A stretch of 64,000 nucleotides of DNA. It comes from a virus (taxonomy: Duplodnaviria > Caudoviricetes). A program made the translations under genes and the position numbers. Below, piece after piece: positions 30,651-43,839 of the stretch (positions are counted from its first letter, which is position 1; every line of letters begins with the position of its first letter). The stretch is taken from the IMG/VR virus record IMGVR_UViG_2974611114_000001, positions 32,001 through 96,000 of that record. The stretch is one strand, 5' to 3'. A model generated the notes under the pieces. The model was not told where the DNA came from and made no database searches. It saw nothing but the letters and a program-made list of their open reading frames with translations.

Positions 30651-30716
30651 ATTAGCATTAGGGGATTCTTTGGAGTCCCCTCTACTAAGGGAACACCTTT
30701 AGTAGAGGAGGGTATA

Positions 30717-31148: not shown

Positions 31149-31160
31149 GGAGACATAAGT

Positions 31161-32428: not shown

Positions 32429-32441
32429 TTTAAAATTTTAG

Positions 32442-32470
32442 TTGCTAAATGCTAAAAACTTTGATATAAT
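32442..32470 (+). promoter_or_regulatory. T5-type early promoter
   Basis: TTGCTA-17-TATAAT; the same TTG(A/C)NN-17-TATAAT-ATWT pattern recurs at ~28328, 28874, 33735, 36128, 38297, 39342, 41536, 44508, 48653, 49199, 50857, 53691, 58678. Confidence 0.8.
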
Positions 32471-32476
32471 ATTTAT

Positions 32477-33200
32477 ATTAAATCGGAACACGGATTATTA
32501 ATAATTCTAATAGTACGATTTCAGGGTACAGCAGGCAGACTATGCTGGTAATATAAGTACATTGTGCTAATTACGAATAGAATCTGTGGGTTTCACTATC
32601 ATAGTGTATAATTTGGCTCTTAACCACCCCGTAAACTCTACCCTTGCATTTTACTACGGTTTAATGCAGAAGAAAGTAAGTATCTTGGTACAAGAGGCGT
32701 AGACACAGGATCGCGGTGCAAATCCGTTAAGTTATCTGCATAAAAGAAGCAACGAAATCTACTCGTCTGGGTTCAACTCCCAGTAACAGATAATAAGGTA
32801 CTAAGAGAAAACAACGAATAAGTATACTAGGTCGCGAACTACTATACTGAGTCCCTAATACTAAATTAGGAAATGTGGAGCTGATCACTTCCCATTTCGG
32901 GATATACTACCTCATGGGGCACCAATATTAATAGCGGAACCCATACGCTTCCTAGGCACGTAAGGGATAAGTCATGACACCCTGCCTATGATGGAATATT
33001 GGAGAAAGTGGTAGTGTAATCCCGAAATGGGTGTGTCGAACTCACTTATGTTGTAACCCTGTTAATATATGAGAGTGTTTACGGGAGTATATTAATAAGA
33101 ACAAGATAACTGGGGCTTATATATTAAGCATCGCTGGCACTACGAACAGTATCCAGGTCTGACCAGGAGACGCTGTTAATGAAGAAAGCCAAAACCCATT
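32477..33200 (+). ncRNA. candidate large structured ncRNA (~720 nt)
   Basis: No ORF; promoter directly upstream; more than 10 helices including long-range pairings and two T-loop hairpins. Confidence 0.7.
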
Positions 33201-33242
33201 ACTTAATTATCAGAGATAACCTATTAATTCGGAGATAAAGCA

Positions 33243-33575
33243 ATGAATTGTCTAACAAATAGAGACGTTAGAGTAATACTAGAAACATTACCATTATACT
33301 TTAAAACAAGATTAGATAGCTCAGTGGATTGTCATACTGAACTTGCAAAGGCTCTAGGGGAGTCCAGATTTGAAGCCAAAGCAAAGCTATATCAGTTCCT
33401 ATACTCGTATAATGGAGTAGCCCAACTTTTATGGGTACGTAAACCTTACGTAGCGCTACATATTATGGCTACTGAATTATCCAATCTAAAAGGAACAACA
33501 ATTAAAGAAGAGCTAGATCAGGCAGAAGTAAAGGCAGCTATAAAACTTAATATGCCAGAACGCTTCTGTCAGTAA
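33243..33575 (+). CDS. hypothetical protein
   Basis: GGAG RBS, 110 aa. Confidence 0.7.
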   Translation: MNCLTNRDVRVILETLPLYFKTRLDSSVDCHTELAKALGESRFEAKAKLYQFLYSYNGVAQLLWVRKPYVALHIMATELSNLKGTTIKEELDQAEVKAAIKLNMPERFCQ

Positions 33576-33639
33576 AGTATTCCCTACTACCTTAGGGAAC
33601 CGTAGAGCTGGGACATCTCTTTAATCTGTCCTACACTAT

Positions 33640-33715
33640 GCGCCCTTAGCTCAGTGGATAGAGCAATAGCCTTCTAAGCTATGGGTCGTAGGTTCGAATC
33701 CTACAGGGCGTACCA
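33640..33715 (+). tRNA. tRNA-Arg(UCU)
   Basis: Cloverleaf, anticodon loop CT-TCT-AA, encoded CCA. Confidence 0.95.
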
Positions 33716-33788
33716 TAAAACTTTATAATTTTACTTGCTAAATGCTTACAATTATAATATAATATTTATTATAAAGTTTAAGGAAAAG

Positions 33789-34045
33789 AATAAATAAAAA
33801 TCTACTTTTGGAGATAGTAAAAGTCACTGCGAAGTTACGGGTGTTTACAAGAGCACTGCGGGAGAGCCTAATAGTAATAGGGCAACCAATTCCACACCAG
33901 CTATGGTTCTCTGTATCTTAGGGCAGAGGGAATTCCTAACCGAAAGGTAACTATTCAGGGGGCGATCAGGTAAACTATACTATCTTAGTAGCTGGTTACT
34001 ACTACGGGCAACTTGTAAGTCGCAAAAGTAGATTCTTTATTTATT
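33789..34045 (+). ncRNA. candidate structured ncRNA (~255 nt)
   Basis: Own promoter (33735-33763); terminal helix AATCTACTTTTG/CAAAAGTAGATT and inner helices. Confidence 0.6.
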
Positions 34046-34050
34046 TTTAT

Positions 34051-34135
34051 GCAGGATTAGTCTAGCGGCAATGACAGGAGACTGTAAATCTCCGCCTCTC
34101 GGGGTTCCGTGGTTCGAGTCCACGATCCTGCACCA
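34051..34135 (+). tRNA. tRNA-Tyr(GUA)
   Basis: CT-GTA-AA loop, long variable arm, CCA. Confidence 0.95.
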
Positions 34136-34212
34136 ACTTGTAAGTCGGGGAATAACGTCCGCAATCAATGAAGTAATAATTTCATTCTGTGCACTCCCCG
34201 ACAATGTATTAT

Positions 34213-34290
34213 ATCGTAGTGGACAAATTGGTAAAGTCACTACCCTTTCAAGGTAGATCTCTGGGGGTTCAAGTCCCCTCTACGATGCCA
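34213..34290 (+). tRNA. tRNA-Glu(UUC)
   Basis: CT-TTC-AA loop, CCA. Confidence 0.9.
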
Positions 34291-34455
34291 TTTTAGTAAT
34301 ACTTTAGTCGGTAGGGCTTTCAACAATTCATATACTCTAAGTATTACTAGTAAATAAAGCAACAAGTACGCTCTTAGGTACACTTTATACGCGAATAAGG
34401 GTTAGTAGTAGCGTGTACAAACGAGTAGCCCTGAAACACCCAAAGTTGCTTTTAT

Positions 34456-34531
34456 ACTTCGATAGCTTAGTAGGTAGAGCACTCGGCTGATAACTGAGAG
34501 GTCACTGGTTCGATCCCAGTTCGAAGTACCA
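34456..34531 (+). tRNA. tRNA-Ile(GAU)
   Basis: CT-GAT-AA loop, CCA. Confidence 0.93.
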
Positions 34532-34554
34532 TTTTAACTTATCTAGGAGTTACT

Positions 34555-34902
34555 ATGTTAGATAATATATTTGCTGGAGACTTTAAAAACATTCGTGACG
34601 TGGAAAGTGAGTTCGAACTACCTACTGGTATGTTAGAAGACATTACTATTATATACGCAGTATATAACCAACCACAGTATGAGGGGTACGCAGAAGTATA
34701 CTTTAAAGATAATTTAACAGGTCTTTATTATGAAGTTCACGGTAGTCACTGCTCATGCTACGGTCTAGAAAATCAATGGAGTCCGGAGCTTATTGGGGAT
34801 AAAGACGCATTCCTAGCCTACGCCAATCGTGTAGAGGTTATGACAGCGCAAAAAGATTATTATTTTGAGGGACATGTTCCTTTAATACAAATTATAGGGT
34901 AG
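34555..34902 (+). CDS. conserved phage hypothetical protein
   Basis: YEG.A...YEVHGSHCSCYGLE.QW motif; stop lies inside tRNA-Asn. Confidence 0.75.
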   Translation: MLDNIFAGDFKNIRDVESEFELPTGMLEDITIIYAVYNQPQYEGYAEVYFKDNLTGLYYEVHGSHCSCYGLENQWSPELIGDKDAFLAYANRVEVMTAQKDYYFEGHVPLIQIIG

Positions 34903-34981
34903 TTAGCCAAGCGGTTTGGCGGTGGACTGTTAATCCATGTTCGAAAGAACGACGCAGGTTCGAATCCTGCACTGCCCGCCA
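34897..34981 (+). tRNA. tRNA-Asn(GUU) with long variable arm
   Basis: CT-GTT-AA loop, GTTC-GAAA-GAAC variable arm, GCCA. Confidence 0.9.
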
Positions 34982-34987
34982 GTTAAT

Positions 34988-35064
34988 TGCGAGTTAGAAG
35001 TTCTGGTGAACTCTCTGGTCTCATAAGCCAGCTTAGGTAGGTTCGATTCCTGCACTCGCTACCA
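34988..35064 (+). tRNA. tRNA-fMet(CAU)
   Basis: CAT anticodon, 1:72 mismatch (U:U), ACCA. Confidence 0.85.
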
Positions 35065-35081
35065 ATTACTGAGGTAACAGT

Positions 35082-35429
35082 ATGTTTCCACTATTATTAT
35101 GGTTGGATGATTTAAGAGACCCAAAAGACTTTACTGATACAGACGTATTTAAAAAGGTTATTTGGGCGAAAACCTTTAGCGAAGCACTATCAGCTTTAGA
35201 TGGCTGTAGTGATAATATTACCCATATCTCACTAGATAATGACCTAGGCGAAGATAAGGAAGGGAATGATGTACTAAATTTTGTGGAAGAACTCCTTCAT
35301 AGTGGAGAGTTGCCAAATCTAAGAGAAGTATATGTACACTCCCACAACCCCTCCGCGGTTGACAAGATGATGTTAGCAAAGCAGAGTCTTAGTAACTACG
35401 GAGTATTATTAATACAAAATAAGGCTTAA
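35082..35429 (+). CDS. cyclic-phosphate-processing Receiver-domain protein
   Basis: LWLDD.R.P, ISLDNDLG, G.D, VHS.NP pattern. Confidence 0.75.
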   Translation: MFPLLLWLDDLRDPKDFTDTDVFKKVIWAKTFSEALSALDGCSDNITHISLDNDLGEDKEGNDVLNFVEELLHSGELPNLREVYVHSHNPSAVDKMMLAKQSLSNYGVLLIQNKA

Positions 35430-35430
35430 T

Positions 35431-35823
35431 ATGTATCTTATAACAGACCACCCACTCTTAAAGCGTAAAGTAAGTAAAGTATACACGTCTAAAAAGACTG
35501 GTACTCAATTTGTCTATGATCAAGATAACAAATCAGTGTCTATTAAGGATTTAATTGCTCTTGGAATAGATTTTAAATTGTCTGAAATCCGACCAACAAC
35601 TACTACTAAGAGCAGTGCTAGGGTGAGCTCAAAGGTAGATGGTTTGATAGATAAGTTAGTCGATGCCTTAGTAGATGATTCAGGTAATGTTAAAGTTAAC
35701 TCAAAGGTAGACGATTTGATAGACGATTTGGTCGATGCCTTAGTAGACGATTTGGTAGAAACAAAGACAACCCACAAACCAACGTTTTGGGAACGAATTA
35801 AAAAATTATTTAAGCGTGCGTAA
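35431..35823 (+). CDS. hypothetical protein with internal acidic repeat
   Basis: SKVD.LID.LVDALVDD twice. Confidence 0.7.
   Translation: MYLITDHPLLKRKVSKVYTSKKTGTQFVYDQDNKSVSIKDLIALGIDFKLSEIRPTTTTKSSARVSSKVDGLIDKLVDALVDDSGNVKVNSKVDDLIDDLVDALVDDLVETKTTHKPTFWERIKKLFKRA
35628..35760 (+). repeat. intragenic tandem duplication (72-bp period)
   Basis: CTCAAAGGTAGA...GTCGATGCCTTAGTAGA at 35628 and 35700. Confidence 0.8.
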
Positions 35824-35889
35824 GATAGTGGCTATTCGGTCGGGCTTCCAACCCGTACAGCGAGGGTTCGAGTCCCTCCGCCCGCACCA
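35814..35889 (+). tRNA. tRNA-Gly(UCC)
   Basis: CT-TCC-AA loop, CCA; one acceptor mismatch. Confidence 0.88.
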
Positions 35890-35905
35890 AATTTAAGGCA
35901 GTATT

Positions 35906-36118
35906 ATGCAGAAAAGTAGAGCTAAAATATCACTGTTACGGATGCCAGTTATACTAGAGTCTCCTAATATTTTAGTCATGGAAATCCCTGAAAGAACAAC
36001 TCGTAAGCAATTAGTTATTGTAGATAGGGAAGTATTTGATATAACACCTACTTTTGAGCAAGTACCTGTTAAGGAAGTGCTACTGCATACTTTTGATAGC
36101 TTATGCATTTTAGATTAA
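35906..36118 (+). CDS. hypothetical protein
   Basis: 70-aa ORF with RBS. Confidence 0.55.
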   Translation: MQKSRAKISLLRMPVILESPNILVMEIPERTTRKQLVIVDREVFDITPTFEQVPVKEVLLHTFDSLCILD

Positions 36119-36186
36119 AAATTTACTTGCCAAAACGCTAAATTTCAATTATAATATATCTATAAATTGAAATGAGGAAATAATAA

Positions 36187-36372
36187 ATGACTTTTAGACC
36201 CTATTCAGATGGTAGTTGTAATGTAGCAGTTCAAATAGGCGATGGTATTGTTGAGCATATTAAAGTACCAAAACCGGTATATGATTACATCTTACAGCTT
36301 GAAAACGCCGTTCGTGATGAAACTGGTTATGTAAGGTCTAAATTGAAAGAAATTTATCCATCACGATTCTAA
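36187..36372 (+). CDS. hypothetical protein
   Basis: Promoter at 36128, GAGG RBS. Confidence 0.65.
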   Translation: MTFRPYSDGSCNVAVQIGDGIVEHIKVPKPVYDYILQLENAVRDETGYVRSKLKEIYPSRF

Positions 36373-36375
36373 TAA

Positions 36376-36452
36376 GCACCTATCGTCTAGTTCGGTTAGG
36401 ACACTTGCCTTTCACGCAAGTAACATGGGTTCAAATCCCATTAGGTGTACCA
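36376..36452 (+). tRNA. tRNA-Glu(UUC), second copy
   Basis: CT-TTC-AC loop, CCA. Confidence 0.92.
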
Positions 36453-36458
36453 ACTTAC

Positions 36459-36537
36459 GGGGATTGGGAATGCTTGGGGTGTTCACCTCGCTTGCACCGA
36501 GGATATCAGGAGGGTTCGAATCCCTCAATCTCCACCA
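36459..36537 (+). tRNA. tRNA-Ala(UGC)
   Basis: CT-TGC-AC loop, G3:U70, CCA. Confidence 0.92.
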
Positions 36538-36555
36538 ATTAAAGAGTAGTTAGCT

Positions 36556-36807
36556 ATGATGAAATTATCGAGTTCAAAAGCTTTGGATAGCTTTCTCCTA
36601 AATAAAGGATACATATTCATAGGCAGAGCAGCTACATGTAGTGGCAAGACTTACTCAGTGTGGGCGTATCCCAATACAGATAATATAATGGAGAACGCTA
36701 GAACCTCCTGTGCTATTGAAGGGCACGCACTTTCAGAATCTGAATTTGAAAAAGTAAAACACCTATCAGATAAATTGGAGGCATTAGATTGTGCACATAC
36801 TTTTTAA
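36556..36807 (+). CDS. hypothetical protein
   Basis: ORF track, in operon. Confidence 0.6.
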   Translation: MMKLSSSKALDSFLLNKGYIFIGRAATCSGKTYSVWAYPNTDNIMENARTSCAIEGHALSESEFEKVKHLSDKLEALDCAHTF

Positions 36808-37148
36808 ACTGGATGGGTGTGGTTAATGTAGGGTGGTATGAAGATAATAACGTACCATTTACAGAGGTAGAAGTAGAGTCTACACTCACCCCTGGAACCT
36901 TCTATACAAAAAGGGAATATGCTACTTATTATTGCTGTGGTAGAATAGACGTAGATGATGACACCACGTTTGGTAGTGAGATAAGCGTACCTGTAATGGA
37001 CGCAGAATCCTGGAATTCGTTTAGTGATTTTTTATGGGATTTAGAAACAGAAAATCCTATCTATGATCTTAAAGAGCTAGAAAGGCTATACACCGAGTCT
37101 ACTGGATTAAAGATCAACTGGTTTAAAGAACAAACGTGTGTAGCATAG
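36789..37148 (+). CDS. hypothetical protein
   Basis: ORF track, in operon. Confidence 0.65.
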   Translation: MCTYFLNWMGVVNVGWYEDNNVPFTEVEVESTLTPGTFYTKREYATYYCCGRIDVDDDTTFGSEISVPVMDAESWNSFSDFLWDLETENPIYDLKELERLYTESTGLKINWFKEQTCVA

Positions 37149-37159
37149 GATTAGTTACC

Positions 37160-37451
37160 CTATGTAAAGCATGACAGGGCTGAGTAGGCTTACTAGCAAG
37201 CTCCAGCCGACGCCTTAAGTGGCATGCTAGCCTCATTAAACAGTCTAACTAACTAAGTGGGAGAAGAGGGTAGCCCACCTTTAATTAACTTAGTTGATTA
37301 AAGTATGTGTGCAAGAACTAGAACCACCCGCCAAAAGAATGCGATTCTACATACTAGATTAGATGGGACTTGGTTTACCCTGAGGATTGGCGATCCAATA
37401 TAGCATAAAAGTTCGATAGGTATATGCTAGTAATACCTACGGCACACATAG
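37160..37451 (+). ncRNA. candidate structured ncRNA (~290 nt)
   Basis: Nested terminal helices CTATGT/ACATAG and GTAGG.TTACTAGCA/TGCTAGTAA.CCTAC. Confidence 0.6.
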
Positions 37452-37477
37452 CTTTAATCAACTATAAGGAACCTACT

Positions 37478-37735
37478 ATGTATGATGAAGAATTGAAAGA
37501 AAGAGCTAGGAAAGTAGTTGAAGAGCTATTTAGTGGTAGCCTTAAACCACAAGTATTCACGCAGCCAAAAGGCATGTGCAAAGTATGTGGAGAGGAACGA
37601 GTAGAGGATCTACTATATCACGGAGCTGGTAAAGGGGCTTTAATCTACTTACCTTGCCGACATTCAGTTCATTTTGCTGATGGTAAACCAGAGGTATGGG
37701 AAGATTCAGAGGGCAATGAAGTAGAGATTAAATAG
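37478..37735 (+). CDS. Zn-finger hypothetical protein
   Basis: Start MYDEEL after AAGGA; CKVC...C.H. Confidence 0.65.
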   Translation: MYDEELKERARKVVEELFSGSLKPQVFTQPKGMCKVCGEERVEDLLYHGAGKGALIYLPCRHSVHFADGKPEVWEDSEGNEVEIK

Positions 37736-37811
37736 CCGAGGTGACGGAATAGGCATACGTACTGTGCTTAAAACGCAGGTTCTGCGGGTTCGATCCCCGC
37801 CCTCGGCACCA
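37735..37811 (+). tRNA. tRNA-Leu(UAA), short variable loop
   Basis: CT-TAA-AA loop, CCA. Confidence 0.9.
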
Positions 37812-37816
37812 AATTT

Positions 37817-37894
37817 GGGACTATGGCGGAATTGGCATACGCGCTAGTTTTAGGTACTAGTACCTTGGGAGTTCGACTCTCCCTAGTCCCACCA
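37817..37894 (+). tRNA. tRNA-Leu(UAG), short variable loop
   Basis: TT-TAG-GT loop, CCA. Confidence 0.9.
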
Positions 37895-37901
37895 AATTTA
37901 T

Positions 37902-37993
37902 AGAAGAACAAACCTATTGGAGAGGGGAGCTACTTGGAAAGTAGCTGAGTGTCGAAAGACGCCTTGTGGGTTCGACTCCCACTTCTTCTGCCA
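37902..37993 (+). tRNA. tRNA-Ser(GGA)
   Basis: TT-GGA-AA loop, long variable arm, GCCA. Confidence 0.9.
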
Positions 37994-38072
37994 AAATTAT
38001 AGCTAAGCTAGAGGTAAGCAAGTATCTGTTAAATACTTATTAAGGGACTGCTAATTCCCCCTTATTTATTAT

Positions 38073-38199
38073 AGTCATCGCGGATGTGGTGTAATCCGAT
38101 TCGGGAGAGGGTACTGATACGGAGTTCGAATCTCCGCGCTAAGATGGGTCTGGGTAAATCCGCACCGAATGATGGGGTTCAATTCCTCAATGACTACCA
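38073..38199 (+). ncRNA. tRNA-like RNA with an extra T-arm in place of the anticodon loop
   Basis: Acceptor AGTCAT/ATGACT + ACCA, D-like arm CGGAT/ATCCG, ATTCGG/CCGAAT stem enclosing CGGAG-TTCGAAT-CTCCG, terminal T-arm. Confidence 0.7.
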
Positions 38200-38204
38200 A
38201 TTTT

Positions 38205-38280
38205 GCCAGTATAGCTCAGTAGGTAGAGCAGTCGCCTTGTAAGCGTCAGGTCATGGGTTCAATTCCTATTGCTGGCACCA
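38205..38280 (+). tRNA. tRNA-Thr(UGU)
   Basis: CT-TGT-AA loop, CCA. Confidence 0.93.
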
Positions 38281-38345
38281 ATTTTAAAAATTTAGTTGCC
38301 AAGTTACCCAATTTATTATATAATATATTTATAAATTAAAGATAT

Positions 38346-38421
38346 AGGGGTTTATTATAATGGCTATTATGCAGGTCTCCAAAACCTTGCGATGTGGGTT
38401 CGATTCCTACAACCTCTGCCA
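38346..38421 (+). tRNA. tRNA-Trp(CCA)
   Basis: CT-CCA-AA loop, GCCA. Confidence 0.92.
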
Positions 38422-38440
38422 AATTTAAAGGAACGACAGT

Positions 38441-38611
38441 ATGAAAGTTGATAAGATTTTACGATGCAAGAAGTGCGGAGATCAGCACCACTTTACACAT
38501 CGAGGGGAGTTCTGGATGTGTAAGTGTAACTCTATTGGTTTCGATGCTGGAGATTCCTATTACTGTCGTTGGTTAGGTGATACTAAGCTGTTTGATTGGA
38601 TTAAGAAATGA
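38441..38611 (+). CDS. small Cys-rich protein (not in ORF track)
   Basis: MKVDKILRCKKCGD...CKC..IGFD.G after AAGGA RBS. Confidence 0.6.
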   Translation: MKVDKILRCKKCGDQHHFTHRGEFWMCKCNSIGFDAGDSYYCRWLGDTKLFDWIKK

Positions 38612-38790
38612 TTTTGCTAACTGGAAGAGTACGGGCAATAGTACAGTATCCTTGTGGAGACATTAGAGAAATACTATTACCAAATATAGTATCGGGGTAC
38701 ACACACGAAGAGCTACATAAATACCTGGATACCGTAGAAACTACTCTAGATATAGTTATTATTGATTGGGAGATTATTGACGATGAGTAG
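38608..38790 (+). CDS. hypothetical protein
   Basis: ATGA coupling. Confidence 0.6.
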   Translation: MILLTGRVRAIVQYPCGDIREILLPNIVSGYTHEELHKYLDTVETTLDIVIIDWEIIDDE

Positions 38791-39076
38791 CCAGCTAAGG
38801 TTTAAAATAGTAGTAGAGTATATGTCTGGTGACTCTTTTGGATCTAGTTTAGAATCTGACGAAATTCCGTATGAGTGGAGTAACTTATCAGAGTGCCAGA
38901 AAGCACTAGATATAATTCTAGAAACTACTAAAAGCCGGTCAGACTTTACAATTATGCTACCTCTAGATGATGGGTCAATGCATCAATTCTCTAACTTCTG
39001 GAATGCGGGCTATTTTGAAAGCCTGCATTCTTTGGAAATTAAACTAGTAGGTGTTGGGGAGAAAATATATGTATAA
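38783..39076 (+). CDS. hypothetical protein
   Basis: Start MSSQLR after GGAG. Confidence 0.65.
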   Translation: MSSQLRFKIVVEYMSGDSFGSSLESDEIPYEWSNLSECQKALDIILETTKSRSDFTIMLPLDDGSMHQFSNFWNAGYFESLHSLEIKLVGVGEKIYV

Positions 39077-39332
39077 TAAAGAAGAAGATCAAACGATCGC
39101 TAACCTTATTGATATGCGCATTCGTCAACAGGTACAGAACGCGATTAAAGTGTCGGAACCGGAGCGTATTGGTGGTAAACTAGTAGTAACTATCTCAGTA
39201 GACGCAAAATTAGCAAGTAAGGTTTACGAAGCATTAAACGATTTAGTAGGTAAGCTAGAATACATTGAGATTGACTCTAGTTCAGATACTACATTATTTA
39301 AAGTAAGACCAGTAATCAATAAATTTATTTAA
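39069..39332 (+). CDS. hypothetical protein
   Basis: Start MYNKEE after GGAG. Confidence 0.65.
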   Translation: MYNKEEDQTIANLIDMRIRQQVQNAIKVSEPERIGGKLVVTISVDAKLASKVYEALNDLVGKLEYIEIDSSSDTTLFKVRPVINKFI

Positions 39333-39402
39333 AATTTCACTTGCAAAACTCCTTAAAATCTAATATAATATATTTATAGTTTGAAGTTAGGGAGTTTTTC
39401 AA

Positions 39403-39924
39403 ATGAATGTTTTAGATGTCCTTAAAAGTAAAGGCGTTACAGATAGTCATAAAGTTTGGTTAGATCTAGAAGGAAATAAGGCAACTTTTCCACTGTTTGC
39501 AACAGATGGTAGATTGGTTGGATTTCAGCAGTATACACCAGATGCTCCTAAAAAGCATAAAGAGCCTAGTAAGGCAAGATATTTTACTTGGAGTTCTGAG
39601 CCAGCATTATGGGGTCTAGACACTGTAAACCCTAATGACACTTTAGTGTTTGTAACGGAAGCAGTATTTAGAGCTACCGCACTACAAAGACTCGGCGTCA
39701 ACGCCGTATCTGCTTTAGGCTCTAGTATGCACAAACCATTACTGAGATTATTAAATAATCACCAAACATATAAGTTTGTTTGGGTAGGTGATCCAGATAA
39801 TGCAGGTGCTAAGTTATGTAAGAAGTTTAAGCACGGTGGTATGCAGTCTCCTAAAGACTTAGATGATATGTCAGACACTGAACTGCTTATGTTTAGTAAA
39901 GTATTACTAGATAATTATAGATAA
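39403..39924 (+). CDS. stand-alone TOPRIM/primase-like protein
   Basis: G.LVGFQQY.P, VTEAVF, SALGS, GDPD.AG, KDL.D. Confidence 0.8.
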   Translation: MNVLDVLKSKGVTDSHKVWLDLEGNKATFPLFATDGRLVGFQQYTPDAPKKHKEPSKARYFTWSSEPALWGLDTVNPNDTLVFVTEAVFRATALQRLGVNAVSALGSSMHKPLLRLLNNHQTYKFVWVGDPDNAGAKLCKKFKHGGMQSPKDLDDMSDTELLMFSKVLLDNYR

Positions 39925-39933
39925 AAGAATAAC

Positions 39934-40011
39934 GGGATGTTAGCTCAATTGGTCTAGAGCACTCGCCTTTTAAGCGATAGGTTCGGAGTTCGAGTCTCCG
40001 ACATCCCACCA
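39934..40011 (+). tRNA. tRNA-Lys(UUU)
   Basis: CT-TTT-AA loop, CCA. Confidence 0.93.
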
Positions 40012-40017
40012 AATTAC

Positions 40018-40094
40018 GGGGCATTAACTCAGTTGGTTAGAGTAGCAGACTCTTAATCTGAATGTCGTAGGTTCGAATCCTACATGCCCCACCA
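40018..40094 (+). tRNA. tRNA-Lys(CUU)
   Basis: CT-CTT-AA loop, CCA. Confidence 0.93.
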
Positions 40095-40112
40095 AATAAT
40101 AGGAAATAGCTA

Positions 40113-40508
40113 ATGAAAACTAAACAACATGTCGGTACTTTCTTTCTCCACGTTATTGTAGAGATTGCCTTAATGAAGGGCTGGGATTTCGATAGTATTA
40201 AAAGTCCTGAAGAGTACCTAGAATCTTATAATGAAAGTACTAAAGACATGGTTTTGTATAAGTTAAGAAATAGCAGCGCAAAACTAACCGTACACAACGC
40301 TATTGAACTGATTAATGGTACTATTAGTGATGAGTCCTTGGAGTTTTTCAACTCGTTATATAAGGTGATCCTAGAGTCTACACCAGAGGTTTTATATGAC
40401 CCGCATTATGTAGTGTTCGTATCAATGCATTCAGGCTCTAGTGATTATTTTACTGTTAGCATGTTGCAAGACGTTATTAAAATTAGCCCCTTTAGCTCAG
40501 AAGAGTAG
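40113..40508 (+). CDS. hypothetical protein
   Basis: AGGA RBS; stop inside the next tRNA. Confidence 0.65.
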   Translation: MKTKQHVGTFFLHVIVEIALMKGWDFDSIKSPEEYLESYNESTKDMVLYKLRNSSAKLTVHNAIELINGTISDESLEFFNSLYKVILESTPEVLYDPHYVVFVSMHSGSSDYFTVSMLQDVIKISPFSSEE

Positions 40509-40562
40509 AGCACCCGACTCATAATCGGTAGGTCGCTGGTTCGATCCCAGCAAGGGGCACCA
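40486..40562 (+). tRNA. tRNA-CAU, probably Ile2 (lysidine type); elongator Met not excluded
   Basis: CT-CAT-AA loop; GCCCC/GGGGC acceptor and GCTGG T-stem resemble bacterial Ile2. Confidence 0.85.
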
Positions 40563-40577
40563 AATTATCAATAAACT

Positions 40578-40982
40578 ATGAGGTATATTATGCCAGACTA
40601 TCTAGGGGCTAAACAGTCCATTAATAAAATGAGTAAAGCAGCTTTAGAATTAGCAGAGTGTATGTATCCTCTACTAGAAGAAGCGCATAACCGTAAACCA
40701 AACGCAGGGTTTGATGCTAAGCTCTTAAAGTTAAAAGAATTAGCGTCCCAGCTAAAATTCTATGAAGAAGTAGATAAAGAAGTATCCATGTATACTCTAG
40801 AGTACGGCGGAGAAGTATTGTACATTGCTATTAGAGGTGATGACATGGTCGTTCATTCTAGTATGTTAAAGCATCTATGGGAAGATAGAGAATCCTTTGA
40901 ATTCGATAAGTATTATTCCTGTAAGGTTAATGAATACTTCTTAGACCCATCTGTGCTTGATAATAAGGTGCGTATCTGGTAA
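40578..40982 (+). CDS. hypothetical protein
   Basis: ORF track; GAGG RBS suggests start at MPDYL. Confidence 0.65.
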   Translation: MRYIMPDYLGAKQSINKMSKAALELAECMYPLLEEAHNRKPNAGFDAKLLKLKELASQLKFYEEVDKEVSMYTLEYGGEVLYIAIRGDDMVVHSSMLKHLWEDRESFEFDKYYSCKVNEYFLDPSVLDNKVRIW

Positions 40983-41190
40983 ATATTTAAGGGCAATTAT
41001 GAGTAGTTCAGGGGTTATTTTAATTAGTATTCTTACTGTGCTATGTATATTATCAGCAGTAATATACTCTGCTATCGTAGCAAATATACTAACAGGGTAT
41101 TCCCCAACGGAAGATATAAAGAGTACGTACTCTAAGGCGGTTAGTTCAGCCACTAATAAGTCTTGGAGTACTAAGAGGGAGTTGGTGTAG
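40957..41190 (+). CDS. small membrane protein
   Basis: Hydrophobic segment VILISILTVLCILSAVIYSAIVANIL; start uncertain. Confidence 0.5.
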   Translation: MIIRCVSGKYLRAIMSSSGVILISILTVLCILSAVIYSAIVANILTGYSPTEDIKSTYSKAVSSATNKSWSTKRELV

Positions 41191-41250
41191 TCGGTAGCAC
41201 TCCAGTCTTTGACACTGGCATCACAGGTTCGAGTCCTGTACTCCCTGCCA
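41176..41250 (+). tRNA. tRNA-Gln(UUG)
   Basis: CT-TTG-AC loop, GCCA. Confidence 0.93.
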
Positions 41251-41261
41251 ATTTTACTATA

Positions 41262-41355
41262 GGAAGAATAACCCTAAAGGTAAGGGAACTGTTTGCTAAA
41301 CAGTCAGTAGCTGATGAAAGTCGGTGTGTGGGTTCAAATCCCACTTCTTCCTCCA
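41262..41355 (+). tRNA. tRNA-Ser(GCU)
   Basis: TT-GCT-AA loop, long variable arm, CCA. Confidence 0.9.
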
Positions 41356-41584
41356 ATCTTATAGGTAGGATATGAAAAGTGTAGTATATATCGCTAAAAA
41401 TAAGTCAACTGGTAATCTAATATTTATAAGACCAGGAGAATACTACCCACAATATGAATATGAGTTAATATATTCCATGTCAGCAGAGCAGGCTATGCAG
41501 TTGGTTATAGATAGTCAAAAAGATTAAAATTGTATTTGCAAAACTCTCAATTTCTTGATATAATATTTATTAGAAATTGAGAGA

Positions 41585-41804
41585 AAGATGTACTTAAGAA
41601 TCAAGCCCTATATCGTTCAGTTTAGGTATTGGACTTAAGATAACGAAAGGTTTAGATAGTAATTCTAGAAAAAACTACTTAACCGACGATGAAGCCTGTA
41701 TATTAAATGTGAGTCATGATCACACTATAAATTACAGCGCCTACGTTTGTAGGACTTGTTCAAGCATTGTCTTGATGAAGGGGCTTGATTCTTAAATACA
41801 TTTT
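41585..41804 (+). ncRNA. candidate ncRNA (~220 nt) with long closing stem
   Basis: Promoter 41536-41564; AAGATGTACTTAAGAATCAAGCCC pairs with GGGCTTGATTCTTAAATACATTTT. Confidence 0.6.
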
Positions 41805-41805
41805 T

Positions 41806-41880
41806 GGTACTATAGTATAACGGCAATTATAACGGTCTGTCGCACCGAAGATCGGGGTTCGATTCCCCGTAGTACCGCCA
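41806..41880 (+). tRNA. tRNA-Asp(GUC)
   Basis: CT-GTC-GC loop, GCCA. Confidence 0.92.
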
Positions 41881-41910
41881 ATCAACTAGAAAGTATGGAG
41901 AGTATATCAT

Positions 41911-42480
41911 ATGGAAGGGTTTACCCCTATACCAGAACACCCAGAGTACTTAGTATCAGATAGTGGGGGCATATATTCTACTATTAGTAATAGATTACTA
42001 CGTCCAACAGTTGATGGTGCAGGGTACCTACACTTCGCTGTACGACTAGACACAAGGAAGTATAAATGGTTACGAGTTCATAGGGTTGTATGTAGGGTGT
42101 TTGGTAACCTGCCAAGTCTCGACTCCACTCTGGAAGTAGACCACATAAACAGGAATAAATTAGATAACCGAGCAGTCAATTTAAATGCCCTAACCCCTGA
42201 AGAGCATATAAGTAAGACCCTAACTGATAAAGGGCTAAAGCCTGGAACAAAACTATGCTCATGTGGCATTCCTATCTCAACTAGAAACAATACGTGCTTT
42301 GCGTGTGCGCACAATAAGGGCTCACATATAACTATAGAGGATATTATTTATTGGGTAACAAACTACTCGTGGAGTAGAGCCTCTAGAGAGTTGGGAATAT
42401 CCGACAACGGATTACGTAAAAAGTACCGATCACTTACTGGAAAAGACCCTAAAAGTATAAAGTACGATTTTTCTAAGTAG
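41911..42480 (+). CDS. free-standing HNH homing endonuclease (NUMOD4-like N-term, HNH, Zn/HTH C-term)
   Basis: Y.VSD.G.I.S, VHRVV, VDHINRNKLDN...NL, C.C...C..C, RELGISDNGLRK. Confidence 0.9.
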   Translation: MEGFTPIPEHPEYLVSDSGGIYSTISNRLLRPTVDGAGYLHFAVRLDTRKYKWLRVHRVVCRVFGNLPSLDSTLEVDHINRNKLDNRAVNLNALTPEEHISKTLTDKGLKPGTKLCSCGIPISTRNNTCFACAHNKGSHITIEDIIYWVTNYSWSRASRELGISDNGLRKKYRSLTGKDPKSIKYDFSK

Positions 42481-42602
42481 GTTAAATCCTACATCAGAGA
42501 CCAAATTATAGTGTAATTAGCTTATAGCTACTGAATAGTCCTAAGGTAGCACGGCAAAGCAGTCGCCCGTTCGATGTCAGGCTTGGAAACGCTTGGTACA
42601 CG

Positions 42603-42645
42603 TAGGGAGTCCGATGTGTAGGTTCAAATCCTACATCAGAGACCA
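42603..42645 (+). pseudogene. 3' half of a tRNA (Pro-like) lacking its 5' half; second remnant at 42477-42504
   Basis: GTAGG-TTCAAAT-CCTAC ATCAGAG ACCA with no complementary CTCTGAT 5' strand nearby. Confidence 0.65.
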
Positions 42646-42651
42646 AATTAA

Positions 42652-42744
42652 GGAGGAATGGCAGAGATGGATTATTGCACCTGACTTGAAATCAGACGGG
42701 TCTAGCGATAGGCTCCAGGGGTTCGAATCCCCTTTCCTCCTCCA
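42652..42744 (+). tRNA. tRNA-Ser(UGA)
   Basis: CT-TGA-AA loop, long variable arm, CCA. Confidence 0.93.
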
Positions 42745-42767
42745 AATTAATTAAAGAGAATAGCGCG

Positions 42768-43223
42768 ATGAAAAATCTAGAAGTGAAAGTAACGCATCTT
42801 GTAGATAACTGGGATTGCGATGATTGTGGGTGTACTATGGAAGAGGGTTGGAAAGTAGTAAGTCCTACCCACCCAGAATTAGACGTTACTATGACACCAT
42901 CAGCATTTTGCTATGATGGTGAGGGATATACAGTTGGTGATCTAATTAAGCACTGGATGTCAAAGGGTATTACCCCTACTGGCATTAATGTATTGGGATT
43001 ACCATTCCATGATTATGAGTTTTTACCATTAGTAGTACCAGAAGCATTTAAGAATACAACTTACATGCTAGATGGTGAAGAATTTACCGACCATGAGCAA
43101 CAAATATGTGATGCTGGTTTAATACAGGAATTCCTATCTAAGGTGTACAAGTTACCAGTCAACCTAGTAACTAGTAGTAAAGATATCTCCACCAATTTTA
43201 ACGAAGAACTAGAGGTTATTTAA
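42768..43223 (+). CDS. hypothetical protein
   Basis: 151 aa, CDDCG motif. Confidence 0.65.
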   Translation: MKNLEVKVTHLVDNWDCDDCGCTMEEGWKVVSPTHPELDVTMTPSAFCYDGEGYTVGDLIKHWMSKGITPTGINVLGLPFHDYEFLPLVVPEAFKNTTYMLDGEEFTDHEQQICDAGLIQEFLSKVYKLPVNLVTSSKDISTNFNEELEVI

Positions 43224-43226
43224 TAA

Positions 43227-43619
43227 ATGAAACGCTTAAGAGCAATTATGTCGGCAATTGTACTATCATCAGTAATATTATTAACTGGGTGTCCTGCGGA
43301 CTCTGATGTAGCATCTCATAACCTAAGTAAGTCCTCAGATAACTTTGAAGTACAACGAAGAATTGTGTTTTACAATGGCATTACTGGAGATTACATGCTG
43401 ACCATTGAGGGTTTATGTACTCGAGATAATACCAGTACTGAACATGTTCTAGGCGTAGTCTGCAAGGTAGGTGATGGGCAATATAAAAAGCATCTGCTTG
43501 GGCTATCAGATAACGTTACTTTCTTTATGGAACAGGTTGACCCAGTATCTGTAAGTAAATACCATTATAGAGTTGTATTTAAACCATCTGTAATTATTCC
43601 AGATATTGATATTCGTTAA
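43227..43619 (+). CDS. lipoprotein
   Basis: Lipobox LLTGC; NFEV.RRIVFYNGIT, GLSDNVT conserved phage lipoprotein pattern. Confidence 0.8.
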   Translation: MKRLRAIMSAIVLSSVILLTGCPADSDVASHNLSKSSDNFEVQRRIVFYNGITGDYMLTIEGLCTRDNTSTEHVLGVVCKVGDGQYKKHLLGLSDNVTFFMEQVDPVSVSKYHYRVVFKPSVIIPDIDIR

Positions 43620-43628
43620 TATAGTAAA

Positions 43629-43703
43629 GCACCTTTAGCTGAGATGGATTAGCACTAGCCTGAAGAGCCTGGGAGGTTGGATCGTTACCAACAGGGTGCA
43701 CCA
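43629..43703 (+). tRNA. tRNA-Phe(GAA), atypical
   Basis: CT-GAA-GA loop, weak anticodon stem, T-loop ATCGTTA, CCA. Confidence 0.8.
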
Positions 43704-43761
43704 AATTAATACTGTAGACGCTATCGTCTACATTTAAGAATCTTACAGTAGGGTTCTTAAA

Positions 43762-43839
43762 TGTGTCGGTAGCATAGTTGGATAATGCCCCTGATTGTGA
43801 TTCAGGAATACGCGGGTTCGAATCCCGTCCGTCACCCCA
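43762..43839 (+). tRNA. tRNA-His(GUG), U at -1
   Basis: TT-GTG-AT loop, C73-CCA. Confidence 0.9.

What the first reader, a model, noticed from the sequence alone, without database searches (positions are those of the whole stretch)
32477..43762. The tRNA cluster appears to double as a multi-ncRNA operon: closed-end structured RNAs alternate with tRNAs
Seen: at least seven non-tRNA segments closed by a terminal helix (33789-34045, 34145-34202, 34293-34349, 34355-34452, 37160-37451, 41585-41804, 42511-42600), plus the 720-nt RNA and a double-T-arm RNA. Three end within a few nt of a tRNA 5' end (Tyr, Ile, Asp), so RNase P cleavage would also make their 3' ends. RNA-linked proteins sit in or beside the same region (YqeY, cyclic-phosphate Receiver domain, DEDDh exonuclease, stand-alone TOPRIM). 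Inference: a phage RNA arsenal (decoys for anticodon nucleases or toxins, RNAP or ribosome modulators) matured by host tRNA processing. This is my best candidate for an undescribed system. T5 is known to make some uncharacterised stable RNAs, so partial prior description is possible.
Basis: inference. Interest (0 to 1): 0.78.

Follow-up and report, generated by a model that had tools for sequence, protein, structure and literature searches.

The report
T5-type stable RNAs among phage tRNAs
The tRNA gene cluster of this T5-like Proteus phage does carry several conserved, folded non-tRNA RNA genes between its tRNAs, but this layout (RNAX, RNA2, RNA2H and others) has been annotated in phage T5 for about twenty years, and the function of these RNAs is still unknown.

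Summary
The window is a Novosibvirus (T5-like, Demerecviridae) Proteus phage.

**What held up.**
- The ~730-nt RNA (32477-33206) is a divergent homologue of T5 "RNAX".
- The double-T-arm RNA (38072-38199) belongs to the T5 "RNA2" tRNA-like family.
- The 37149-37465 RNA is shared with Providencia phages and probably relates to T5 "RNA2H".
- Two promoter-driven RNAs (33785-34048 and 41584-41805) are 95-99% conserved but found only in Novosibvirus. Each is closed by a ~25-bp helix that ends 0-2 nt before a tRNA.

**What did not.**
- Three small spacer hairpins vary between relatives and are probably processing or insulating structures.
- 42511-42600 is not conserved, not structured, and is debris from an HNH-endonuclease rearrangement that destroyed tRNA-Pro.
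- 43629-43700 is a divergent tRNA-Phe.

**Prior knowledge.** GenBank records of T5 and Salmonella phage 5 already annotate eight such "stable RNAs with unknown functions" within or at the head of the tRNA cluster. T4 has the analogous RNAC and RNAD. This scan has also met RNAX and RNA2 many times on other T5-like genomes.

**Verdict.** The multi-ncRNA operon idea is right but not new. The decoy/arsenal function is untested, and RNA2's missing anticodon loop argues against it. Maturation by RNase P is inferred from geometry only.

The parts
32442..32470 (+). sigma70-type promoter (TTGCTA, 17 nt spacer, TG-extended TATAAT) driving the large RNA; predicted start about 32477
   Evidence: The promoter and the first transcribed bases are near-invariant in Novosibvirus and Priunavirus. 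It has the same layout as T5 promoter P16-17 in front of rnaX.
32477..33206 (+). RNAX-like large structured RNA (~730 nt), with no conserved ORF
   Evidence: 96-99.6% identical in Novosibvirus and ~70% in Providencia phages, with indels that are not multiples of 3. 27 base pairs carry compensatory changes, against 14.3+-2.5 in shuffles (0/500) and 3-5 in slid controls. nhmmer links it to T5-group RNAX (E 1e-6 to 2e-8). No Rfam family matches.
32764..32784 (+). T-arm module inside the large RNA (GGTTCRAnTCC loop, 5-bp stem)
   Evidence: The loop is conserved while the stem changes in step between phages: CTGGG/CCCAG, CTAGG/CCTAG, TACGG/CCGTA, GAGG/CCTC. Relaxed ARAGORN calls a low-scoring tRNA-like element just upstream, at 32646-32736, around the first T-arm-like hairpin.
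33243..33575 (+). 110-aa ORF inserted between the RNAX-like core and its conserved 3' tail (33578-33639)
   Evidence: Present only in the window and RP7. Contigs of a relative join 33201 directly to 33579. No Pfam or PHROG match.
33735..33763 (+). sigma70-type promoter in front of the 257-nt RNA
   Evidence: 22 nt from the -10 element to the start of the helix.
33785..34048 (+). ~260-nt multibranched RNA closed by a ~26-bp helix that ends 2 nt before tRNA-Tyr; seen only in Novosibvirus
   Evidence: z = -3.4; inverted repeat I3. Mean column identity is 99% across six phages, and 1-nt indels exclude a coding reading. G-U pairs and a GAAA loop fit the + strand. Covariance model R2 finds no relative in 10 other Demerecviridae genomes, nhmmer finds none, and IMG/VR holds only Stubb.
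34144..34203 (+). 58-nt GC-clamped hairpin in the Tyr-Glu spacer
   Evidence: z = -4.6. Present in Stubb, VTCCBPA139 and RP7. It is replaced by an unrelated, longer spacer (~150 nt between Tyr and Glu) in Proteus phage 1 and PL1.
34293..34349 (+). 57-nt AU-rich hairpin in the Glu-Ile spacer
   Evidence: z = -2.6; 87-100% identical in relatives.
34355..34452 (+). 98-nt spacer element closed by an 8-bp helix that ends 3 nt before tRNA-Ile
   Evidence: z = -1.1, not significant. 88-100% identical, with only one-sided changes.
37149..37465 (+). ~320-nt structured RNA (probable RNA2H relative) upstream of ORF 37478-37735
   Evidence: Homologue in Providencia phage PSTCR5 (nhmmer E 7.7e-26) and in PR1. 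Alignment A3 shows conserved blocks, and 7 pairs carry compensatory changes. A 66-nt block matches the 5' end of phage 5 RNA2H and the ~14 nt just upstream of it (E 0.004). GTTGATTAAAG (37294-37304) can pair either with 37281-37291 or with 37452-37462, which lies beside the RBS.
38072..38199 (+). RNA2-type tRNA-like RNA: acceptor stem, D-like arm, anticodon-like stem carrying a ~60-nt module with a second T-arm, terminal T-arm, encoded CCA
   Evidence: An HMM built from the Novosibvirus and Priunavirus copies (window's included) hits phage 5 RNA2 (E 2.9e-9) and the EH2, Kamaji and polluks copies. Invariant motifs lie in the same order in all ten copies. Stems covary: anticodon-like stem 46/46 cells paired in 6 variants, inner T stem 50/50 in 7 variants, terminal T stem 48/50 in 8 variants.
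41536..41564 (+). sigma70-type promoter (TTGCAA, 17 nt spacer, TG-extended TATAAT) in front of the 220-nt RNA
41584..41805 (+). ~220-nt multibranched RNA closed by a 25-bp helix that abuts tRNA-Asp (41806); seen only in Novosibvirus
   Evidence: z = -6.1; inverted repeat I2. 95-98% identical. One pair varies as T-A, A-T and G-T, and the helix mismatch in the window is a proper pair in all relatives. Covariance model R1 finds only trivial short hairpins in five other genera. No paralogue in the phage's own genome.
42481..42651 (+). Rearranged remnant, not an RNA gene: two copies of the 3' end of tRNA-Pro (42484-42508 and 42626-42650) flank 117 nt of unrelated sequence, downstream of the HNH endonuclease ORF 41911-42480
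   Evidence: z = +1.5. Only the last ~34 nt are shared with relatives, which carry an intact tRNA-Pro here. HNH_3 domain.
43629..43700 (+). Divergent tRNA-Phe (GAA) with an aberrant T-loop, missed by ARAGORN at default settings
   Evidence: Rfam tRNA 38.3 bits against a cut-off of 29. nhmmer matches T5-group tRNA-Phe (E 5e-22). Relaxed ARAGORN calls it.
43713..43764 (+). Two leader hairpins in front of tRNA-His; the second (43730-43764) runs into the tRNA's 5' end
   Evidence: I4.

Best explanation
The region is a T5-type early tRNA island. Several sigma70 promoters drive polycistronic transcripts in which tRNAs, small ORFs and non-tRNA structured RNA genes alternate.

**What the non-tRNA RNAs are**
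- Five are genuine RNA genes: an RNAX homologue, an RNA2-type tRNA mimic, a probable RNA2H relative, and two Novosibvirus-specific RNAs of ~260 and ~220 nt.
- The small spacer hairpins most likely only insulate or stabilise neighbouring tRNA precursors.
- The 42511-42600 segment is homing-endonuclease debris.

**How they are most likely made (inferred, not shown)**
1. The three promoter-proximal RNAs start at the promoter.
2. Host tRNA-processing enzymes cut them free. RNase P cleavage at the 5' end of the downstream tRNA leaves the upstream RNA ending at the foot of its closing helix. That helix then shields it from 3' exonucleases.
3. The ~25-bp closing helices are also long enough to be RNase III substrates.
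4. The T-arm and acceptor-like modules in RNAX and RNA2 give them a tRNA-like way into the same machinery (RNase P, the CCA-adding enzyme, T-loop modification enzymes).

**What they do**
- Their function is unknown.
- Sequence constraint is as strong in loops as in stems, and RNA2's genomic neighbours change from phage to phage. Both favour independent, trans-acting RNAs that bind a host or phage partner over mere cis-acting leaders.
- They are accessory: T5 lacking four of them is viable.
For: **Shown here**
- Promoters lie directly upstream of three of the RNAs.
- Closing helices are the longest distant inverted repeats in the region and end 0-3 nt from tRNA 5' ends.
- Folding is significantly better than in shuffles for four elements.
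- Identity is higher than in flanking CDSs and even than in tRNA-Arg.
- 1-nt indels exclude a coding reading.
- Covariation supports the large RNA, the RNA2-type mimic and the 37149-37465 RNA.
- Homology to T5-group RNAX, RNA2 and, weakly, RNA2H.
- Synteny matches T5: a PHROG-1460 gene, then a promoter, then the large RNA, then tRNA-Arg(UCU).
- RNA2 homologues sit beside different genes in different phages, which argues for an independent gene.

**From records and papers**
- T5 and phage 5 annotate these RNAs as 'stable RNA with unknown functions', with RNAX and RNA III ending exactly where tRNA-Arg and tRNA-His begin.
- T4 RNAC and RNAD are detected by Northern blot and have unknown function (PMC9697503).
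- The T5Mos deletion 30661-38625 is viable (PMC11464382). It covers RNA2H, RNAIV, RNA2 and RNA3 (coordinates).
Against: - No expression or end-mapping data exist for this phage. The RNA-library contigs that hold a relative span whole genes and promoters, so they may be DNA or read-through transcripts.
- The two Novosibvirus-specific RNAs are so conserved (95-99%) that almost no covariation can be read. Their structures rest on thermodynamics plus one covarying pair.
- Such high identity could also come from recent recombination sweeps driven by the homing endonucleases of the region.
- The 98-nt and 57-nt elements fold no better, or barely better, than shuffles.
- A helix that abuts the tRNA 5' end might hinder RNase P rather than help it.
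- A model built from T5-group copies alone did not find the window's RNA2 copy. The link is transitive, through closer relatives.
Confidence: 0.72

Rival explanations
1. Cis-acting leaders only. The structured segments are not genes for trans-acting RNAs. They are 5' leaders and spacers that protect the polycistronic tRNA transcripts from 5'-end-dependent decay, keep tRNA folding units apart, set the order of processing, or (for 37149-37465) regulate translation of the downstream ORF.
For: - Three of them are the first element behind a promoter and directly precede a tRNA.
- The small hairpins vary between relatives, as spacers do.
- 37149-37465 has two mutually exclusive pairings, one beside the RBS of the next ORF, and both are conserved across genera.
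- Internal promoters are themselves embedded in inverted repeats (I1, I21, I25).
Against: - 260 nt at 99% identity, loops included, is far more constraint than a protective stem needs.
- RNA2 homologues keep their structure while their neighbours change.
- RNAX tolerates an ORF inserted between it and tRNA-Arg.
- T5's annotators call these RNAs stable species.
Confidence: 0.2
2. The RNAs are decoys or inhibitors aimed at host defences or core machinery, such as anticodon nucleases, toxins, RNA polymerase or ribosomes.
For: - The tRNA islands of T5-like phages do serve counter-defence. T5 tRNA-Lys neutralises PARIS (PMC11464382), and the retron Eco2 cuts host and T5 tRNAs (PMC12916289).
- A cREC_REC RNA-repair-associated domain lies within the island.
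- The RNAs are dispensable on laboratory hosts, as accessory genes are.
Against: - No resemblance to any host RNA or known decoy was found.
- The tRNA mimic lacks an anticodon loop.
- There is no Rfam match to 6S, tmRNA, RNase P RNA or any other family.
- The 220-nt RNA is multibranched rather than 6S-like.
- The published counter-defence activities all map to true tRNAs.
Confidence: 0.12
3. Decay products. The segments are eroded tRNA genes and recombination scars with no function of their own.
For: - This is true for 42481-42651.
- RNAX carries tRNA-like pieces that annotation pipelines call pseudo-tRNAs.
- RNA2 has a tRNA body.
- The region is rich in HNH endonucleases that reshuffle it.
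Against: - The five main RNAs are more conserved than the protein genes around them.
- They show compensatory changes.
- Invariant 20-nt blocks persist across genera.
- The RNA2 module is the best-conserved part of that RNA across the T5-like genera sampled.
Confidence: 0.06

Closest known systems
Phage T5 / Salmonella phage 5 rnaX (RNAX, 'stable RNA with unknown functions'; AY543070.1 40848-41566, AJ604531.1 12898-13682)
   Same: - Same place and order: PHROG-1460/T5.081-like gene, strong promoter, ORF-free 0.7-0.8 kb RNA, tRNA-Arg(UCU).
- Shared sequence blocks at the 5' end.
- A shared long helix with symmetric mismatches (CACTTATGT.GTAAC ... GATAACTG).
- Embedded T-arm or tRNA-like module.
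- Absent from Rfam.
   Different: - Only two blocks (~250 nt) align.
- The window and the Providencia phages carry a ~360-nt domain between these blocks, closed by an invariant 13-bp helix (32891-32903 / 33019-33031), that T5 lacks at that position.
- T5 has ~450 nt after the second block, where the window has ~100.
- In the window an ORF separates the RNA from tRNA-Arg.
Phage T5 rna2 (RNA2, 'tRNA-like stable RNA with unknown functions'; AY543070.1 32959-33083)
   Same: - Same size (~125 nt).
- Same cloverleaf, with the anticodon loop replaced by a module that carries a second T-arm.
- Same invariant motifs (GAGGGT, GTTCGAWT, GTAANTCCGCA, TGAT).
- All stems covary.
   Different: - The window's copy has a 4-nt insertion in the module and encodes its own CCA.
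- It lies between tRNA-Ser and tRNA-Thr rather than between ORFs.
- It is detectable from T5-group copies only through intermediate relatives.
Phage T5 rna2H (RNA2H, 172 nt)
   Same: A shared ~66-nt block (TTAGTT.A.TAA.GTAT ... CTAG.AC..GC.GCCAA.AAG), non-coding, inside the tRNA island.
   Different: - The window's RNA is about twice as long.
- It has no strong promoter immediately upstream and is followed by an ORF, not by tRNA-Ala.
- Homology is weak (E 0.004).
Phage T4 RNAC and RNAD (species 1 and 2 RNAs of the T4 tRNA cluster)
   Same: Small stable RNAs encoded in a phage tRNA cluster, co-transcribed and processed with the tRNAs, of unknown function (PMC9697503; their location and processing are from my own knowledge of Fukada & Abelson 1980).
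   Different: An unrelated phage family. No sequence comparison was made here.
GOLLD and ROOL large ornate RNAs
   Same: Large (600-800+ nt), elaborately folded RNAs of phages and prophages, 'often near tRNA islands', sometimes with tRNAs in a linker, of unknown function (bioRxiv 10.1101/2024.12.08.627333). RNAX shares this setting.
   Different: No match to either Rfam model even at E <= 10. No evidence of multimer or cage formation.

Membership tests
T5-type RNAX | Sequence homology to annotated rnaX | tested here: met
   An HMM of the window plus Priunavirus copies hits RNAX of phage 5, T5, SE19, KKP_3711 and IME260 (E 2e-8 to 3e-7). The 5' block hits phage 5 (E 1.6e-6), DU_PP_V (9.5e-5), and KKP_3711 and IME260 (0.002-0.003). 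Only about a third of the RNA aligns.
T5-type RNAX | Position: own early promoter, head of the tRNA island, upstream of tRNA-Arg(UCU), downstream of a T5.081-like gene | tested here: met
   In the window and RP7 a 110-aa ORF is inserted before tRNA-Arg.
T5-type RNAX | Long ORF-free RNA with conserved secondary structure | tested here: met
   27 compensatory pairs against 14.3+-2.5 in shuffles, and 93.9% of cells paired against 35-39% in slid controls.
T5-type RNAX | Accumulates as a stable RNA in infected cells | not testable with these tools
   The RNA-library contigs cannot separate RNA from DNA or show ends.
T5 RNA2 tRNA-like RNA | Sequence homology | tested here: met
   A Novosibvirus/Priunavirus HMM that includes the window's copy hits phage 5 RNA2 at E 2.9e-9. 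The T5-group HMM hits the Priunavirus, Proteus phage 1, Stubb and PL1 copies (E 6e-9 to 2.5e-4) but not the window's copy directly. The window's copy is 85% identical to PL1's.
T5 RNA2 tRNA-like RNA | tRNA body whose anticodon loop is replaced by a module with a second T-arm, with covarying stems | tested here: met
T5 RNA2H | Sequence homology over the RNA | tested here: inconclusive
   One 66-nt block, spanning the 5' end of RNA2H and the ~14 nt just upstream of it, at E 0.004-0.02.
T5 RNA2H | Promoter, then RNA, then tRNA | tested here: not met
   No strong promoter lies directly upstream, and an ORF follows.
6S RNA (proposed for 41584-41805) | Match to the Rfam 6S model, and a rod-like fold with a central bubble | tested here: not met
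   No hit at E <= 5. The MFE and centroid folds are multibranched.
GOLLD / ROOL | Match to the Rfam models | tested here: not met
RNase P RNA (considered for the large RNA because of GAAGAAAGCC and GGCTTAT motifs) | Match to any Rfam RNase P model, with the conserved regions in the right order | tested here: not met
   No hit at E <= 10. The motif order is reversed relative to the P4-forming regions (my own reading).
tRNA (43629-43700) | Cloverleaf above the Rfam threshold, and homology to tRNA-Phe | tested here: met
   38.3 bits against a cut-off of 29; E 5e-22 to T5-group tRNA-Phe.

The most novel reading that the evidence does not exclude
The two Novosibvirus-specific RNAs (33785-34048 and 41584-41805) have no counterpart in T5's annotation, in Rfam, or in ten other Demerecviridae genomes searched. 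In the most novel reading they are new trans-acting phage RNAs that bind and neutralise a host factor or defence protein specific to Proteus. Together with RNAX and RNA2, this would make the T5-family tRNA island a reservoir of functional RNAs that turns over between genera.
Probability: 0.15. Interest if true: 0.7.

Novelty: new member of a known kind. Interest (0 to 1): 0.38.

Why it matters
T5-like phages are classic models and common therapy candidates, yet a substantial part of their tRNA island encodes RNAs whose function nobody knows. This window adds three things.
- The set of RNAs turns over between genera. RNAX and RNA2 are kept, and RNA2H probably is. No RNA I, III or IV counterpart was detected. 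Two new RNAs appear.
- The RNAs are under stronger constraint than the proteins around them.
- The 'closing helix abutting a tRNA' design recurs four times.

That gives concrete, cheap targets for Northern blots, end mapping and deletion. Phage tRNA islands have just been shown to be counter-defence loci through their true tRNAs, so the timing is good. The principle itself is not new.

Tried and rejected
**RNA family searches**
- Rfam at gathering thresholds and at E <= 5 or 10 found only tRNAs.
- A resemblance of two motifs in the large RNA to RNase P conserved regions was considered and dropped: no model hit and the wrong order.

**Wider sequence collections**
- IMG/VR scans with conserved 20-21-mers returned only phages already in hand.
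- The one metagenome hit (L013) shares only the 21-mer, so it is a chance match.
- Covariance models R1 and R2, for the 220-nt and 260-nt RNAs, found nothing real in 5 and 10 other Demerecviridae genomes. Both models are nearly single-sequence, so distant relatives could be missed.
- Single-sequence nhmmer of phage 5 RNA I, III, IV, RNA1 and RNA3 against the window found nothing.

**RNA sequencing runs**
- Four metatranscriptome runs from one study hold a close relative as contigs that cross promoters and genes, so expression is not shown.
- In the two low-depth runs the deepest contig covers 33884-34377.
- One contig stops at 32473, beside the predicted start of the large RNA.
- Adapter sequence joins on at 33818 and 37981.
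- With one study and contigs only, these are no more than hints.

**Other elements**
- 40983-41175 is as conserved as the RNAs but encodes a small membrane protein.
- A borderline RNA2-model hit at 42560-42635 (E 0.07) is explained by the tRNA-Pro T-arm remnant.
- The open literature held here has nothing on RNAX.

Full report
**Identity of the window.** The region 32477-43762 is 82-85% covered at 93-95% identity by Proteus phages 1, 2, M4H10_20 and VTCCBPA139. It is 77-78% covered at ~90% by Stubb and PL1. All are Novosibvirus, Demerecviridae, that is, T5-like phages. The window belongs to a complete 104,329-bp virus record. ARAGORN finds 22 tRNAs between 33640 and 43839. Rfam adds a weak tRNA at 43629-43700 and nothing else, even at E <= 5.

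**The observation.**
- Fold energies beat dinucleotide shuffles clearly for four segments: 41585-41804 (z -6.1), 34145-34202 (-4.6), 33789-34045 (-3.4) and 34293-34349 (-2.6).
- They are marginal for 32477-33242 (-2.0) and 37160-37451 (-1.7).
- They fail for 34355-34452 (-1.1) and 42511-42600 (+1.5).
- Strong sigma70-type promoters lie just upstream of the large RNA, the 257-nt RNA and the 220-nt RNA.
- The helices end 2, 3 and 0 nt before tRNA-Tyr, tRNA-Ile and tRNA-Asp, and a further hairpin runs into tRNA-His.

**Conservation.** Across seven loci from relatives:

| Element | Identity |
|---|---|
| Large RNA | 96-99.6% |
| 257-nt RNA | 98-99% |
| 220-nt RNA | 95-98% |
| Flanking protein genes | 78-95% |
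| tRNA-Arg | 78-91% |

- One-nucleotide indels inside the 257-nt RNA rule out the short ORFs that some records annotate there.
- The 58-nt hairpin is missing from two relatives, which carry an unrelated, longer spacer instead.
- Only the last fifth of 42481-42651 is shared.

**Prior description.** GenBank AJ604531.1 (Salmonella phage 5, tRNA gene region) and AY543070.1 (T5) annotate eight non-tRNA RNAs within or at the head of the tRNA cluster: RNAX (719-785 nt), RNA I, RNA III, RNA IV, RNA2H, and the tRNA-like RNA1, RNA2 and RNA3. All are labelled stable RNAs with unknown functions. RNAX follows promoter P16-17 and ends exactly where tRNA-Arg begins. RNA III ends where tRNA-His begins. RNA2H follows promoter P13b and precedes tRNA-Ala. 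So the idea that the tRNA cluster doubles as an ncRNA operon matured with the tRNAs is about twenty years old for T5. It is older for T4, whose RNAC and RNAD are still of unknown function (PMC9697503). Earlier agents of this scan reached the same identification of RNAX and RNA2 on many other T5-like genomes. I reached it independently from the GenBank annotation.

**The large RNA.**
- Providencia phages PSTCR5 and PR1 (Priunavirus) have a ~740-nt gene-free gap at the same place that is ~70% identical to the window.
- The six-sequence alignment shows invariant blocks of up to 24 nt between variable stretches, with indels that are not multiples of 3.
- On the RNAalifold structure, 27 of 141 pairs carry changes on both sides. 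Shuffles give 14.3+-2.5 (0 of 500 reach 27) and slid controls give 3-5. 93.9% of cells are paired against 35-39% in the slid controls. Only two or three independent lineages are present, so this is good but not overwhelming.
- An HMM of this alignment hits RNAX of phage 5, T5, SE19, KKP_3711 and IME260, and more weakly the Pectobacterium phage DU_PP_V. The hits fall in two blocks: one at the 5' end, and one forming a long helix with symmetric mismatches whose tip is a plain hairpin in the window but a tRNA-like insert in T5.
- Every genus examined has a 0.7-1.3 kb unannotated gap there, followed by tRNA-Arg.
- RNAX sequence matches 526 phage records.
- The window's version has a different domain order or content. 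About 360 nt, including a T-arm with covarying stems and a domain closed by an invariant 13-bp helix, lie between the two shared blocks.
- In the window and RP7 a 110-aa ORF of unknown family is inserted between the conserved core (up to about 33206) and a conserved 62-nt tail (33578-33639) that elsewhere follows directly.

**The double-T-arm RNA (38072-38199).**
- The element is 99% identical in RP7, 85% in PL1 and ~73% in the Providencia phages.
- Aligned with phage 5 RNA2 and with copies from polluks, EH2 and the Serratia phage Kamaji, all ten share the same motifs in the same order.
- HMM searches link the two groups in both directions at E 1e-11 to 2.5e-4. The T5-group model does not reach the window's own copy, which has a 4-nt insertion, so its membership is transitive.
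- Motif-anchored extraction shows the anticodon-like stem paired in 46/46 cells with 6 different sequences, the inner T stem in 50/50 with 7, the terminal T stem in 48/50 with 8, and the acceptor stem in 61/70 with 8.
- It is a tRNA body whose anticodon loop is replaced by a ~45-60-nt module containing a second T-arm. In the window it ends in an encoded CCA.
- Its neighbours differ from phage to phage, being tRNAs in some and ORFs or promoters in others. That marks it as an independent gene.
- It has no anticodon loop, so it is a poor candidate for an anticodon-nuclease decoy.

**The 37149-37465 RNA.**
- It has clear homologues in PSTCR5 (E 7.7e-26) and PR1, again as conserved blocks between covarying hairpins, with 7 compensatory pairs.
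- A 66-nt block matches the 5' end of phage 5 RNA2H and the ~14 nt just upstream of it at E 0.004. Homology is probable but not firm, and the context differs.
- The true start of the next ORF is 37478, not 37424.
- An 11-nt segment (37294-37304) can pair either locally or with a near-identical copy of its partner at 37452-37462, 4 nt upstream of the RBS. Both are conserved across genera. This hints at a cis-regulatory role.

**The 260-nt and 220-nt RNAs.**
- These are the only parts without a known counterpart. nhmmer, covariance models and k-mer scans find them only in Novosibvirus.
- They are non-coding and sit on the + strand, as shown by the promoter, G-U pairs and a GAAA loop.
- They are extremely conserved, at 99% and 98% mean column identity, loops included.
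- That leaves almost no covariation to read: one pair in the 220-nt RNA varies as T-A, A-T and G-T, and the single mismatch in the window's closing helix is a proper pair in all relatives.
- The 220-nt RNA is multibranched and does not match Rfam 6S.
- I rate them likely real RNA genes (about 0.65) of unknown function.

**What is not an RNA gene.**
- 42481-42651 lies behind an HNH endonuclease ORF. That ORF has replaced a small gene and the 5' two-thirds of tRNA-Pro.
- The last 25 nt of tRNA-Pro plus its trailer occur twice (42484-42508 and 42626-42650), around 117 nt of unrelated sequence. This phage therefore appears to lack tRNA-Pro.
- 43629-43700 is a divergent tRNA-Phe.
- 40983-41175 is as conserved as the RNAs but encodes a small membrane protein.

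**Mechanism.**
- Shown: promoters, helices, adjacency, conservation, covariation, homology.
- Inferred: RNase P cleavage at the downstream tRNA defines the 3' end at the foot of the closing helix. The ~25-bp helices may also be RNase III stalks, as in rRNA precursors. The T-arm and acceptor modules engage tRNA enzymes.
- Function is unknown.
- Loop-level constraint and the mobility of RNA2 favour trans action. The alternative pairing at 37149-37465 and the variable small hairpins favour cis roles for those elements.
- The RNAs are accessory. The viable T5Mos deletion 30661-38625 (PMC11464382) covers RNA2H, RNAIV, RNA2 and RNA3.
- Published counter-defence by these islands maps to true tRNAs.

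**Expression.** Four metatranscriptome runs from one study hold a close relative, but as contigs that cross genes and promoters. They cannot show transcription, ends or strand.

cREC_REC and Toprim are confirmed. 'YqeY' rests only on a PHROG label. The DEDDh exonuclease was not examined.

**Verdict.** Three RNAs are new members of T5 families, two are candidate genus-specific additions, and the arsenal function is speculation.

Noticed in passing
window 41911-42651: An HNH endonuclease ORF has replaced a small gene and most of tRNA-Pro. The 3' 25 nt of tRNA-Pro plus its trailer are duplicated (42484-42508 and 42626-42650) around 117 nt of unrelated sequence. This phage appears to lack tRNA-Pro, which all its relatives encode. 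In phage 5 an HNH endonuclease gene also sits directly upstream of tRNA-Pro.
   Followed up: partly
window 33243-33575: A 110-aa ORF with no Pfam or PHROG match is inserted inside the RNAX-like locus, between its conserved core and its conserved 62-nt tail. It is present only in this phage and RP7. Enterobacter phage KKP_3711 also has a CDS between RNAX and tRNA-Arg.
   Followed up: partly
window 33718-33779, 39331-39412, 41544-41583: Three internal promoters are each embedded in an inverted repeat (12-33 nt arms), with one arm upstream of or inside the promoter and the other at the start of the transcript. In read-through RNA from upstream these would form hairpins across the promoter, possibly as processing or termination signals.
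   Followed up: no
window 37281-37304 and 37452-37462: Two near-identical 11-mers compete for the same complementary segment. The downstream copy lies 4 nt from the RBS of ORF 37478-37735. Both are conserved in Providencia phages, which suggests a possible translational switch.
   Followed up: partly
window 43629-43700: tRNA-Phe (GAA) has a non-canonical T-loop (ATCGTTA instead of TTCRANY) yet is 97-100% conserved. ARAGORN misses it at default settings.
   Followed up: partly
window 33640-33715: tRNA-Arg(UCU) is only 78-91% identical among Novosibviruses, less conserved than the non-coding RNAs on either side of it.
   Followed up: no
window 35082-35429: A 115-aa protein is a stand-alone cREC_REC (cyclic-phosphate processing receiver) domain (E 4e-18), sitting between tRNA-Met and tRNA-Gly. 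This domain is associated with RNA repair.
   Followed up: no
window 40999-41175: A small hydrophobic protein gene (annotated 'membrane protein' in Stubb) is 96-98% conserved and overlaps the start of tRNA-Gln.
   Followed up: no
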